This document shows, piece after piece, positions 8,215 to 41,988 of a stretch of 64,000 nt of DNA. The stretch is from positions 4,891 to 68,890 of the forward strand of contig JAGVMN010000003.1 in assembly GCA_020053795.1 (NCBI GenBank), given 5' to 3'. The notes below the pieces were generated by a model. That model searched no databases and was not told where the DNA came from. It saw nothing but the letters and a program-made list of their open reading frames with translations. A program made the translations under genes and the position numbers. This stretch comes from Bacteroidia bacterium. GTDB lineage: Bacteria > Bacteroidota > Bacteroidia > NS11-12g > UBA9320. Within the stretch, counting starts at the first letter, position 1; each line of letters starts with the position of its first letter.

Positions 8215-8267
8215 TGAAGTATTTATAAAGGTGTAAATTAATACTTTTTGCTCACAAGTATCGGGAA

Positions 8268-8299
8268 TTTTCAAATTTTCAAATTGGCAAATTTTCAAA
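8268..8299. repeat. Four 8-bp tandem units (TTTTCAAA, one TTGGCAAA) between divergent genes
   Basis: Direct reading of the sequence. Confidence 0.7.
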
Positions 8300-8321
8300 T
8301 TAATTGAGGCACAATAATTGT

Positions 8322-39294: not shown

Positions 39295-41169
39295 CTAAAT
39301 CTTTATCAACTTAAAAACTCGAATTTTGAGATTGCAATCTACTTTTAAAAAATAAGTGCCTTTAACGAATGAACCAATATTGAATCTTTGTGGATCAGTC
39401 AAAAATACCTCGCTGAATACCTGCATCCCTAATGCGTTATACATTGTAACAGTTGAACCAATCTCGGCACCTTCAATTGAGAATGAGGATGTAGCAGGAT
39501 TTGGAAAAACAACTGCTTCCCTATCCGTTATGCTTTTTACACCTAAAAGATTACCTATGTATATTGGGAAAATGAAAGTGTCGTTCCCACAATTATTGTA
39601 AGCTATCAGAGTAATGTCATAATCTCCACTATCTAAAAAGGTGTGTATGGGATGTTTTTCTGTTGTACTAACATTGCCATGACCAAAAAACCATTTGAAT
39701 TGATCTGAACCAGTACTTAAATTAGTAAAAGTTACTTTGCCGCCTTTTTTTGTGTAACTAAATATTGAATGAGGCTTGCAATTGTATTTGGCAGCATAGG
39801 GTTTACCCTGATATTGTAATGGAGGGAATACATAAAGATATGGTCCTGGATCATAGTCCGTATTTATGCCAATGAGTCCTGACAGGTATTGATCACCTGT
39901 AGAGGAAGCAAAAAAATTATTATAACCATTAAAAGCTGTTTGACCGGGCTCACTGATGTATGAAATCCATTCAAGACTGTCATTTAATATTGGTCCCCAA
40001 AACCCGATTCTTGGCTTATCAAAATAGTATTTGTTTCCAATGAAGAACTCTAACGGTTCGTTGCTCTGATCAACATCACTTGCATAACCATAGAAATATA
40101 ATTTTCCTTTTTCTGAATTGAAAACCCCTAGCTTTAAAGAATAGTTGGAAGAAAAATATTTTTTACTGACCAACACTCCACTAACCCATTTGGTCAAAGC
40201 GAATTGACTATTATCCAAAAAAGAATGATTCGACAAATAATAAGTTCCAATAGCAGCCTTTGTTATGAGATACAAAGTATCATTGTGGTAAGTTCCCGAT
40301 TCGAGGGTAAAACTACCTTTTACAGTAATAGTGTCCGTTAGGCCGAACAGACCCTCACCAAAAGAGATAATGGAACGAAAGGTACTATCAAAAGGGTATC
40401 TTACAGCATAAGCGACCCAAATTCCTGCATAATCAAAGATGACGGAACCTGTAGAAACTCGGGTTGACCAAAAATCAAACAAGAAATAATTTTTAAGTTG
40501 CATTGTAGCCAAATTTATTTTCAGACCGACAAATTTTTGTTGCTCGTTTGTGGCAAACACAGTATCGGTTTTGTTGGGAATTATATACGGTTGGGATACA
40601 TGAACAACAAAATCGAGTTCCTCATTTCTAATAAAGGATGAAAGGGAAGAAATTACAAAATTTGATCCCAGAAAAAAGTTGCCTTTGTATTCTCCATTCC
40701 GATCATATTTGATTAAGTGATATGCCATTGATCCTGATAATGTACCAATCCAAACCGCGAGCCTTAAAGGATAATTGAAATATAAAGTATCAGAATTTGA
40801 CCGAACAAGGGTAAAAATATCACCGGAGTTATTTTTCCAATTTTTCATGATTTCTTCCTTCCCGCTACCCGCAATTTGTCTATGCCAAATGTATTCCCCC
40901 GATCTGCTTTGCTTAATTAAGAAAGCATCTAAAGAGTTTAGAATCGAGGTATCCCTGTTATCAGAGTTATTTTTGTCTGCGGCAACATCTCCGGAAAATG
41001 AAATATGACCAATGTCTGAATTTGAATCCAACTCTATAAACGTCGCGGAAGCCAGGCTATTAACGGTAAAACTGTTTACGTACTGAAGATTCTGAGCATA
41101 ACAGTCTTGTGTATTATACCCCAAAGTTAATAATACCGTTCCGAAAAGGAATTTGATTTTTTTTGTCAT
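39295..41169 (-). CDS. T9SS cargo with PKD domain and type A CTD
   Basis: Signal peptide, degenerate propeller-like N-terminus, FTNLSTGSDQFKWFFG..STTEKHPIHTF (PKD), VFPNPA...VFKLIKI (CTD). Confidence 0.85.
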   Translation of the reverse strand: MTKKIKFLFGTVLLTLGYNTQDCYAQNLQYVNSFTVNSLASATFIELDSNSDIGHISFSGDVAADKNNSDNRDTSILNSLDAFLIKQSRSGEYIWHRQIAGSGKEEIMKNWKNNSGDIFTLVRSNSDTLYFNYPLRLAVWIGTLSGSMAYHLIKYDRNGEYKGNFFLGSNFVISSLSSFIRNEELDFVVHVSQPYIIPNKTDTVFATNEQQKFVGLKINLATMQLKNYFLFDFWSTRVSTGSVIFDYAGIWVAYAVRYPFDSTFRSIISFGEGLFGLTDTITVKGSFTLESGTYHNDTLYLITKAAIGTYYLSNHSFLDNSQFALTKWVSGVLVSKKYFSSNYSLKLGVFNSEKGKLYFYGYASDVDQSNEPLEFFIGNKYYFDKPRIGFWGPILNDSLEWISYISEPGQTAFNGYNNFFASSTGDQYLSGLIGINTDYDPGPYLYVFPPLQYQGKPYAAKYNCKPHSIFSYTKKGGKVTFTNLSTGSDQFKWFFGHGNVSTTEKHPIHTFLDSGDYDITLIAYNNCGNDTFIFPIYIGNLLGVKSITDREAVVFPNPATSSFSIEGAEIGSTVTMYNALGMQVFSEVFLTDPQRFNIGSFVKGTYFLKVDCNLKIRVFKLIKI

Positions 41170-41187
41170 GGGTAATCCTACCATAGC

Positions 41188-41729
41188 TTAAGTTGAGTAA
41201 CAACAATTTGAATATCTAACGTTAGTTTCCGCACAACAATTCAAACGGCCTTTGAAGTGAACGGGGCCTGTATTATTGTTGTCAACGCATACCCCCGTAG
41301 TTAAATTGCCATTAACTTCTACAACCTTGAAAATATAATTACATCCATTGGCCTGACACAGGCTGTCAAAATCCAATGGAGTACCGGATTGACAAATGAA
41401 CAATTTCTGCACATAAGGCAATGATTTAGTTCCTGGCCGAAGATAATTACATTGATTGCAAGGCGGAGGCGGCACAGGAACGGAAATATTATCCATAACC
41501 ATTCCCAAAAAAACGGGTGTTCCACAATCCTCATAAACTTCTATTTTAACACAACAATCTATGGCATTTTCATAGTCGTAAACACAAGATTGGGCCTGAG
41601 TTTTAGAGTTCAAACTGAAAACAAGTACAACACTAAAAGTAATAAATTTTAAGATAAATTTTTGAGTTTTGAGTTTTGAGTTTTGAGTTTTGAGTTTTGA
41701 GTTTTGAGTTTTGAGTTTTGAGTTTTCAA
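41188..41729 (-). CDS. Secreted 14-Cys protein; out of frame with its TTG start at the present repeat number
   Basis: Body open 41188 to about 41740 but has no usable start before the h-region. TTG at 41729 gives MKTQ...KFILKFITFSVVLVFSLNSKTQA when n = 1, 4, 7 or 10. Confidence 0.7.
41664..41726. repeat. Perfect heptamer SSR (GAGTTTT)9
   Basis: Nine exact copies counted. Confidence 0.97.
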
Positions 41730-41988
41730 AGCTTTTTTTTGGTCAAATTTAATTAATCCGTTGTATTTGTCAAGTAAATTTAGGAATAAAATGCTGGAAT
41801 TTGGTAAATGAGCAACCGATGGTGTTTTATTTGTTCAGCATTTTAAAGTTGGTTGATTATTTTAGTGGATTGTATCCGCCGTATGTAGGGCTCAATTGAC
41901 ATCTTTTTTTTTAGTTAAGATTTCAGTCATTGACTTATGCAGGTTAGATTCAAAAAAAAAGAGGAAAAAGATTTGCCATTTCATTTTA

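What the first reader, a model, noticed from the sequence alone, without database searches (positions are those of the whole stretch)
41188..41774. Candidate phase-variation switch: (AAAACTC)9 in a signal-peptide coding region, currently OFF
A promoter-like TTG-N19-TAAATTTG (41744-41773, minus) precedes TTG at 41729, which is followed immediately by nine perfect heptamers. With n = 9 the frame gives MKTQNSKL...KNLS* and stops. With n = 1, 4, 7 or 10 it joins the downstream ORF. For n = 1 it reads MKTQKFILKFITFSVVLVFSLNSKTQA-Q, a clean Sec signal. The open body frame has no start codon upstream of the hydrophobic region. One-unit slippage (9 to 10) would switch on a secreted protein and might have polar effects on the T9SS cargo gene starting a few bases downstream.
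Basis: partly seen in the sequence, partly recalled or inferred. Interest (0 to 1): 0.7.

Follow-up and report, generated by a model that had tools for sequence, protein, structure and literature searches.

The report
Seven-base repeat on/off switch candidate
Nine perfect copies of a 7-base repeat sit between the only start codon and the export signal of a small cysteine-rich secreted-protein gene and put it out of frame, which most likely makes it a slippage-driven on/off switch of a known kind, though no data on repeat-length variation could be obtained.

Summary
A perfect (AAAACTC)9 tract (minus strand, 41726-41664) follows a TTG at 41729. At n=9 the TTG frame stops after 26 codons. At n=1, 4, 7 or 10 it joins an intact 157-codon body that begins with a Sec signal peptide.

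The body is a real gene. Two distant homologues start with ATG-MK, have a signal peptide at the same place, carry no repeat, and also lie directly upstream of a homologue of the 629-aa T9SS cargo gene. The repeat therefore grew out of native codons 2-5 (AAAACTCAAAA).

A Bacteroidota-type promoter, TTG-N19-TAAATTTG, ends 14 nt before the TTG, which is the usual distance in this genome.

The most likely explanation is slipped-strand translational phase variation. It works like E. coli K1 neuO (AAGACTC heptamer) and Neisseria opa (repeat in the signal-peptide region).

The defining test, repeat-length polymorphism, could not be run.

The genome also holds many non-coding 7/8-nt arrays, so a neutral expansion that has just killed the gene remains a live rival. 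I class it as a new member of a known kind, of moderate interest.

The parts
41744..41773 (-). Bacteroidota-type promoter-like element: -33 TTG (41773-41771), 19-nt spacer, -7 TAAATTTG (41751-41744). The predicted transcription start is about 41740, in the A8 run.
   Evidence: Sequence. The motif TTG-N17-21-TAnnTTTG occurs 532 times on both strands of the genome, and its distance to long-ORF ATGs peaks at 10-30 nt. In F. johnsoniae the transcription start lies 4-5 nt after the -7 box (PMC6847099). Function is inferred, not shown.
41733..41740 (-). A8 run that forms most of the predicted ~10-nt leader (A at -4 to -11 relative to the TTG)
   Evidence: Sequence. Upstream adenines favour initiation in Bacteroidia (PMC6847099).
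41727..41729 (-). TTG, the only canonical start codon between the promoter-like element and the hydrophobic core of the signal peptide
   Evidence: The MKT... it encodes matches the N-terminus MKTK... of homologue P0005.
41664..41726 (-). (AAAACTC)9, a perfect heptanucleotide repeat. With the following AAAA (to 41660) it makes 9.6 copies. It has no stop codon in any sense frame and encodes (KTQNSKL)n.
41649..41729 (-). The reading frame as assembled (n=9): a 26-aa peptide MKTQNSKLKTQNSKLKTQNSKLKNLS with stop TAA at 41651-41649 (the OFF state)
41593..41661 (-). Signal-peptide coding part of the body frame: KFILKFITFSVVLVFSLNSKTQA, with predicted cleavage A/Q before QSC
   Evidence: It aligns with the signal peptides of P0003 and P0005. 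Gln at +1 is typical of Bacteroidota signal peptidase I substrates (my own knowledge).
41188..41592 (-). Mature part of the small secreted protein (134 aa, 14 Cys), intact to its stop TAA at 41190-41188
   Evidence: Homology to P0003 (E 2.3e-5, query residues 9-148) and P0005. No Pfam or NCBIfam family matches.
39295..41184 (-). Downstream gene: a 629-aa (or 624-aa, from the ATG at 41169) T9SS cargo with a PKD domain and a type A C-terminal sorting domain. It starts 3 nt after the small gene's stop and is probably co-transcribed.
   Evidence: Its N-terminus aligns with the genes downstream of the P0003 and P0005 homologues.

Best explanation
This is a simple-sequence-repeat translational switch (a contingency locus). 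A promoter at 41773-41744 gives an mRNA with a short A-rich leader. Translation starts at the TTG at 41729 and runs straight into (AAAACTC)n. The unit is 7 nt and has no stop codon in any sense frame, so each gain or loss of one unit by slipped-strand mispairing during replication moves the downstream gene through three frames.

Lengths with n = 1 mod 3 (7, 10, 13...) produce a pre-protein. Its N-terminal region is extended by (KTQNSKL) heptads, followed by the Sec signal peptide and a 134-aa mature protein with 14 cysteines. Other lengths end after a short peptide. The assembled allele (n=9) is OFF, and +1 unit or -2 units turns it ON.

The T9SS cargo gene starts 3 nt after the small gene's stop and no promoter of its own was seen, so switching may also change cargo expression through coupling or polarity.

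Shown here:
- the tract and the frame arithmetic;
- that the gene is real and intact;
- the ancestral repeat-free start;
- the conserved gene pair.

Inferred:
- the promoter and transcription start;
- use of the TTG as the start codon;
- actual length variation and its rate;
- function of the long N-terminal region;
- polarity on the cargo gene.
For: 1. Nine perfect copies make this the longest perfect single-unit repeat in the genome. It is unique in the order.
2. The frames behave as stated, and there is no other canonical start before the hydrophobic core.
3. The body is a bona fide gene. An exhaustive phmmer search finds P0003 (167 aa, E 2.3e-5, aligned over query residues 9-148) and P0005. 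Both start ATG-MK plus a signal peptide, then AQC..DCC..I(E/D)(V/I)Y, with no repeat.
4. The n=1 form MKTQKF... resembles MKTKQN... of P0005, so the tract grew from the native AAAACTCAAAA.
5. Synteny is conserved. The genes downstream of P0003 and P0005 align collinearly with residues 1-106 of the cargo (E 3e-5 and 2e-7).
6. The body ORF has no other lesion over 157 codons.
7. TTG-N19-TAAATTTG ends 14 nt before the TTG. In this genome such motifs lie mostly 10-30 nt before a long-ORF ATG.
8. There is precedent. In neuO an AAGACTC heptamer in the 5' coding region switches the gene by frame. Fragment analysis showed 93% of cells at 21 repeats, with 20 and 22 as minor lengths, and 3-53 copies are seen among genomes (PMC13001214). 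H. influenzae has heptamer SSRs in promoters and ORFs (PMC2651432).
9. A second heptamer array, (CAGCCAC)3(CAGCCAA)3, lies between the ATG and the hydrophobic core of another secreted protein of the same genome, in frame.
Against: - No repeat-length polymorphism data exist.
- The start is TTG, not ATG. In F. johnsoniae an A as the first base of the start codon is a positive determinant of initiation (PMC6847099). The predicted leader of about 10 nt is at the short end of the range.
- The genome is full of non-coding 7/8/14/16-nt arrays. Heptamer expansion may therefore be a neutral mutational bias rather than a selected device.
- The ON forms would carry an unusually long (19-26 aa), lysine-rich N-terminal region whose effect on export is unknown.
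- The copy number comes from a fragmented assembly and could be off by one unit.
Confidence: 0.55

Rival explanations
1. Incidental gene death. In a genome whose replication is prone to expanding heptamers, the native AAAACTCAAAA expanded neutrally and the gene is now a young pseudogene. The tract may still slip, but nothing selects for switching and the gene will decay.
For: Many long non-coding 7/8/14/16-nt arrays occur in the same genome, for example (TGGTTAA)49, (AGTTGTCAATGGTT)45 and (AACCATT)8. The small gene is dispensable in some lineages, since full-length cargo homologues in G016 and G033 have no small upstream gene. One homologue (L018) carries an in-frame TGA.
Against: The body is intact over 157 codons, including all 14 Cys and the C-terminal motif region. 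The tract is perfectly pure. One slip restores the frame, so physically the state is reversible whatever the selection.
Confidence: 0.2
2. Assembly miscount. The true dominant allele has 10 (or 7) units, and the gene is simply ON with a heptad-extended N-terminus.
For: The assembly is fragmented and incomplete (76 contigs, 74% complete). Several contigs end in long arrays (C22:1-636, C67:28889-28987), which shows that arrays trouble this assembly. A perfect 67-nt period-7 tract is a loop in a de Bruijn graph at small k.
Against: 67 nt is shorter than usual read lengths, so reads should span and count the tract. This is inferred, not checked. The tract lies in the interior of a 79-kb contig.
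Confidence: 0.1
3. The repeat is a 5'-leader element, not coding. The A-rich, unstructured (AAAACUC)n serves as a leader or protein-binding array, and translation of the body starts at a non-canonical codon (ATC 41655 or ATT 41643). Alternatively, translation reaches the body by -1 slippage of tRNA-Lys at the UCA-AAA-C sites, which recur once per 21 nt. Copy number then tunes expression rather than switching it.
For: Heptamer arrays placed just upstream of start codons and proposed as post-transcriptional sites are described in Beggiatoaceae, Cyanobacteria and five Bacteroidetes (PMC4679880). Bacteroidia favour A-rich unstructured leaders (PMC6847099). The leader is not significantly structured (z -0.82). 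ATC at 41655 would give MLKFITFSVVLVFSL..., still a plausible signal peptide. The body frame is -1 relative to the TTG frame.
Against: No canonical start follows the repeat before the hydrophobic core. The unit is not TAACTGA and occurs nowhere else in the genome or the order. The TTG-encoded MKT matches the homologue N-termini, which indicates that the repeat lies inside the ancestral coding sequence. No known frameshift stimulator is present.
Confidence: 0.1

Closest known systems
neuO O-acetyltransferase gene of E. coli K1 (CUS-3 prophage), heptanucleotide repeat (PMC13001214)
   Same: Both have a heptanucleotide tandem repeat in the 5' coding region directly after the start. The frame, and hence full-length translation, depends on copy number modulo 3. 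The repeat is translated as a hydrophilic heptad in the ON state. The unit AAGACTC differs from AAAACTC by one base.
   Different: The proteins are unrelated: the body here has no acetyltransferase or other Pfam or NCBIfam match. neuO is cytoplasmic and phage-borne in a pathogen. Here the repeat precedes a Sec signal peptide in an uncultured-type Bacteroidota genome. Here ON is n = 1 mod 3, not n = 0 mod 3. Variation is proven for neuO and untested here.
Neisseria opa genes: CTCTT pentamer repeats in the signal-peptide coding region (my own knowledge; Opa phase variation is listed in PMC11868660)
   Same: A repeat inside the signal-peptide coding region of an exported protein switches translation ON and OFF by frame.
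   Different: opa has a pentamer that encodes the hydrophobic part of the leader, not a heptamer in the N-terminal region. opa is a multigene family of outer-membrane adhesins in a host-restricted pathogen.
H. influenzae heptanucleotide SSRs: hmw1A/hmw2A promoter TGAAAGA arrays and the AACAACC array in the TonB-dependent receptor gene HI1369 (PMC2651432)
   Same: Heptamer units with 8-38 copies are associated with surface-protein genes. The HI1369 tract lies within the ORF and causes frameshifts between strains.
   Different: The hmw arrays act on transcription from about 100 bp upstream. The organisms and proteins are unrelated.
Intergenic TAACTGA-type heptamer arrays of Beggiatoaceae, Cyanobacteria and some Bacteroidetes (PMC4679880), and the non-coding 7/8-nt arrays of this genome
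   Same: Tandem heptamers lie near gene starts, and the phenomenon occurs in Bacteroidota. It shows that some genomes expand heptamers readily.
   Different: Those arrays lie upstream of a start codon, recur genome-wide with one unit, and are proposed to be binding sites. Here the unit is unique and lies downstream of the only start codon, inside an ancestral coding sequence.
Invertible-promoter phase variation of Bacteroides (PMC11868660)
   Same: Stochastic ON/OFF control of surface or secreted products in the same phylum.
   Different: That mechanism is site-specific DNA inversion by recombinases, not repeat slippage. No inverted repeats or invertase are involved here.

Membership tests
SSR-mediated translational phase variation (contingency locus) | Pure tandem repeat, with a unit length not divisible by 3, inside or at the 5' end of a coding sequence | tested here: met
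   (AAAACTC)9, 100% pure, directly after the TTG.
SSR-mediated translational phase variation (contingency locus) | Changing the copy number by single units alternates between a full-length ORF and early termination | tested here: met
   In-silico variants n=0-13: ON at n = 1 mod 3, stops in the other two frames.
SSR-mediated translational phase variation (contingency locus) | The switched ORF is otherwise intact and encodes a real, usually surface or secreted, protein | tested here: met
   Homologues P0003 and P0005 with signal peptides. Conserved synteny with the T9SS cargo. No internal lesion.
SSR-mediated translational phase variation (contingency locus) | Repeat number is polymorphic within a population or between close strains | not testable with these tools
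No other assembly of the locus was found. The genus has a single genome.
SSR-mediated translational phase variation (contingency locus) | High-frequency, reversible switching of the product or phenotype | not testable with these tools
   This needs culture or single-cell data.
NeuO (poly-psi) O-acetyltransferase family | Protein homology to NeuO or a hexapeptide-repeat acetyltransferase | tested here: not met
   No Pfam or NCBIfam family matches the body. Only the mechanism is shared.
TAACTGA-type 5'-leader heptamer arrays | The unit TAACTGA (or a unit that recurs genome-wide), placed upstream of a start codon | tested here: not met
   The unit AAAACTC occurs once in the genome and nowhere else in the order. 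No canonical start follows it before the hydrophobic core.
T9SS type A cargo (downstream gene) | C-terminal type A sorting domain above the curated cut-off, plus an N-terminal signal peptide | tested here: met
   PF18962 at 32.4 bits (cut-off 27) and TIGR04183 at 35.6 bits (cut-off 23). N-terminus MTKKIKFLFGTVLLTLGYNTQDCYA/Q.

The most novel reading that the evidence does not exclude
Heptamer repeats placed between the start codon and the signal-peptide core may be a recurrent, selected class of contingency locus in free-living Bacteroidota, gating individual secreted-protein and T9SS-cargo operons. This genome has two such arrays, one OFF (this locus) and one ON (C42:1499-1540). Earlier notes of this scan list several more in other genomes, all unchecked here. 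Heptamer-prone replication would supply the raw material. Selection by phage, grazers or surface attachment would keep the arrays at this one position, which tolerates insertions.
Probability: 0.25. Interest if true: 0.65.

Novelty: new member of a known kind. Interest (0 to 1): 0.4.

Why it matters
Repeat-driven phase variation is textbook biology for host-adapted pathogens. In Bacteroidota the documented mechanism is promoter inversion, and the 2025 review read here (PMC11868660) mentions Bacteroides only in connection with invertase- or inversion-driven switching. A heptamer switch in the signal-peptide region of a conserved two-gene secreted-protein/T9SS-cargo operon would extend SSR contingency loci to an environmental, probably uncultured Bacteroidota lineage. 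It would also give a handle on the function of an uncharacterised cysteine-rich protein family and its cargo partner. For annotation, it warns that such genes are truncated to a signal-less ORF (here 141 aa from the TTG at 41613) or missed altogether.

Tried and rejected
- **Other assemblies of the same locus.** Exact-protein look-ups for the small ORF, both cargo starts and the neighbouring ArsR gene found nothing. Protein-pattern scans of metagenome and genome contigs found no relative. An exact 29-mer from the repeat flank had 0 hits in metagenome contigs.
- **Relatives.** No homologue of the small protein was found in 60 related genomes, and the word-index search was empty. Only the exhaustive phmmer search found the family. 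The profile search added one fragment, P0006.
- **Structure.** An AlphaFold2 model from the 4-sequence alignment had mean pLDDT 43. It is unusable, so no fold search was run.
- **Repeat as a family-wide element.** Rejected, with 0 hits in 190 other genomes of the order.
- **Structured RNA leader.** Rejected (z -0.82).
- **A larger set of SSR-switched genes via poly-G/C tracts.** The 12 tracts of 8 or more G or C show no convincing pattern.
- **Homologues of the second array-bearing gene (C42).** Only distant ones exist, which is uninformative about copy number.
- **ORF is not a gene.** Rejected because of the homologues and the conserved synteny.

Full report
**The observation**

On the minus strand the sequence reads ...TTGACAAATACAACGGATTAATTAAATTTGACCAAAAAAAAGCT-TTG-(AAAACTC)9-AAAAATTTATCTTAAAATTT.... 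Tandem Repeats Finder reports 41660-41726, period 7, 9.6 copies, 100% matches, score 134. This is by far the best array in the window. A census of perfect repeats in the whole 2.32-Mb, 76-contig assembly (40% G+C) puts it first by length. A pattern search found (AAAACTC) in 3 or more copies in none of the other 190 genomes of the same order.

I rebuilt the locus with 0-13 units:
- n=9 gives MKTQNSKLKTQNSKLKTQNSKLKNLS*, 26 aa, with the stop at 41651-41649.
- n = 2 mod 3 ends at ...KIYLKIYYF*.
- n = 1 mod 3 (1, 4, 7, 10, 13) reads into the body. For n=1 this gives MKTQKFILKFITFSVVLVFSLNSKTQA/QSCVYDYENAIDCC...

The body frame is open from 41742. It has no ATG, GTG or TTG until the TTG at 41613, which lies after the hydrophobic core. 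The only near-cognate codons are ATC at 41655 and ATT at 41643.

**Is the body a gene?**

No Pfam or NCBIfam family matches it. No homologue was found in 60 related genomes. The word-index search of 5.8 billion proteins returned nothing.

The exhaustive phmmer search of 1.84 billion cluster representatives found two full-length relatives. These are P0003 (167 aa, E 2.3e-5, aligned over query residues 9-148) and P0005 (139 aa). Both begin with ATG-MK, then a signal peptide, then AQC-x8-DCC-x3-I(E/D)(V/I)Y, like the window protein. Their DNA (L017, L018) has no repeat after the ATG and is identical between independent samples.

P0005 starts MKTKQN and the window gene at n=1 starts MKTQKF. The TTG at 41729 therefore sits where the family's start codon is, and the tract is best read as an expansion of the native AAAACTCAAAA in codons 2-5 (inference).

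In both homologue loci the next gene begins within about 90 nt of the small gene's end; at the P0003 locus it overlaps that end. Its N-terminus aligns collinearly with residues 1-106 of the window's 629-aa protein (E 3e-5 and 2e-7). That protein has a PKD domain and a type A T9SS sorting domain above the curated cut-offs.

The small cysteine-rich secreted protein (14 Cys in the mature part) and this T9SS cargo thus form a conserved two-gene unit. Some lineages have the cargo without the small gene (G016, G033).

**Promoter and start context**

TTG-N19-TAAATTTG (41773-41744) fits the Bacteroidota -33/-7 consensus. In this genome 532 such composite motifs occur on both strands. Where one precedes a long ORF, the distance from the -7 box to the ATG peaks at 10-30 nt. 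Here the distance to the TTG is 14 nt, against 130 nt to the TTG at 41613.

In F. johnsoniae the transcription start lies 4-5 nt after the -7 box, 87% of leaders exceed 10 nt, and adenines at -3, -6, -12 and -13 and at the first base of the start codon favour initiation (PMC6847099). Here the predicted leader is about 10 nt, with A at -4 to -11, G at -3 and a TTG start. That is acceptable but not strong. The first 141 nt of the predicted mRNA are not significantly structured (z -0.82).

**Mechanism**

The arrangement is that of a translational SSR switch. The unit length is not a multiple of three, the array is pure, and there are no stops in any sense frame. The array sits between the only start codon and the export signal of an otherwise intact gene.

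The closest proven case is neuO of E. coli K1. There an AAGACTC heptamer in the 5' coding region sets the frame. Complete genomes carry 3-53 copies, and fragment analysis of one strain showed 93% of cells at 21 copies, with 20 and 22 as minor classes (PMC13001214). H. influenzae has heptamer repeats both in promoters (hmw) and inside ORFs (PMC2651432). Neisseria opa genes carry their pentamer in the signal-peptide region (my own knowledge).

The phase-variation review I read mentions Bacteroides only in connection with invertase- or inversion-driven switching (PMC11868660).

**What weakens the adaptive reading**

This genome carries many 7/8/14/16-nt arrays, nearly all intergenic or at gene 3' ends:
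- (AGTTGTCAATGGTT)45 at a contig end;
- (TGGTTAA)49;
- octamers upstream of sucC;
- (AACCATT)8;
- several (AATTTGAA)n arrays.

Heptamer expansion is thus a general mutational habit here, and the tract could be a neutral expansion that has just inactivated the gene. The literature also describes heptamer arrays just upstream of start codons as possible leader elements (PMC4679880). That model fits poorly here, because no canonical start follows the repeat and the unit is unique.

Two arrays do lie in the one coding position that tolerates insertions. One is the locus under study. The other is (CAGCCAC)3(CAGCCAA)3 in C42, between ATG-MKNSTFSVN and the hydrophobic core of a 508-aa secreted protein, in frame.

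Earlier notes of this scan list similar heptamer-after-start cases in other uncultured Bacteroidota. Some are said to differ in copy number between samples, and one was judged a dead gene. I did not check them, and they are leads only.

**What could not be done**

The decisive test is the repeat-length distribution in reads. No second assembly of this species was found by exact-protein look-ups, pattern scans or a flank 29-mer. The AlphaFold2 model of the protein was too poor to use (pLDDT 43). The OFF call rests on a copy number from a fragmented, 74%-complete assembly.

**Verdict**

The most likely explanation, at about 0.55, is a slipped-strand ON/OFF switch of the neuO/opa kind, caught OFF, that controls a small secreted cysteine-rich protein and possibly its T9SS cargo partner. 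The rivals are:
- a young pseudogene made by neutral heptamer expansion (0.2);
- an assembly miscount of a gene that is really ON (0.1);
- a leader element with non-canonical initiation or frameshifting (0.1).

I class it as a new member of a known kind, of moderate interest.

Noticed in passing
G000 C42:1499-1540 (minus strand; outside the window): A second heptamer array lies in a signal-peptide N-terminal region of the same genome. ATG AAA AAT TCT ACC TTC TCA GTC AA(CAGCCAC)3(CAGCCAA)3 encodes MKNSTFSVNSHQPPATSQQPTAKLQLLKLVSLIVTLLF... It has six units (42 nt) and is in frame, in a 508-aa secreted protein. Only distant homologues exist in relatives.
   Followed up: partly
G000 C22:1-636, C3:60018-60363, C3:75471-75607, C45:10221-10277, C67:28889-28987, C72:4314-4407: The genome is rich in long non-coding arrays of 7, 8 and 14 nt, such as (AGTTGTCAATGGTT)45, (TGGTTAA)49 and (AACCATT)8. 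Several lie at contig ends, so they break the assembly. Their function is unknown.
   Followed up: partly
window 8266-8301 (minus strand); also G000 C36:34295-34330, C3:62149-62183, C34:11602-11631: Octamer arrays (AATTTGAA or TGAAAATT)n read like tandem copies of the Bacteroidota -7 box TAnnTTTG. In the window, one lies just upstream of the gene that starts MESLPIFISV...
   Followed up: no
L018:796-798 (TARA Oceans contig): The P0005 homologue of the small protein has an in-frame TGA where the related P0006 has Gly (GGA). The frame continues to ...LILWYDCP*. This could be a nonsense mutation or a read-through.
   Followed up: no
window 41158-41165 (minus strand): An A8 run lies in codons 2-4 (ACA AAA AAA ATC) of the cargo gene's signal peptide if translation starts at the ATG at 41169. 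There are two candidate starts, ATG 41184 and ATG 41169.
   Followed up: no
G000 C63:33107-33117: A C11 tract lies inside a 1253-aa ORF and is read in frame as PPPP. It is another potentially slippage-prone site in a large secreted-looking protein.
   Followed up: no
window 41598-41604 (minus strand): A single further copy of AAAACTC lies in the C-terminal part of the signal peptide (AAC TCT AAA ACT CAG = NSKTQ). It echoes the repeat-encoded NSKLKTQ and is probably chance.
   Followed up: no
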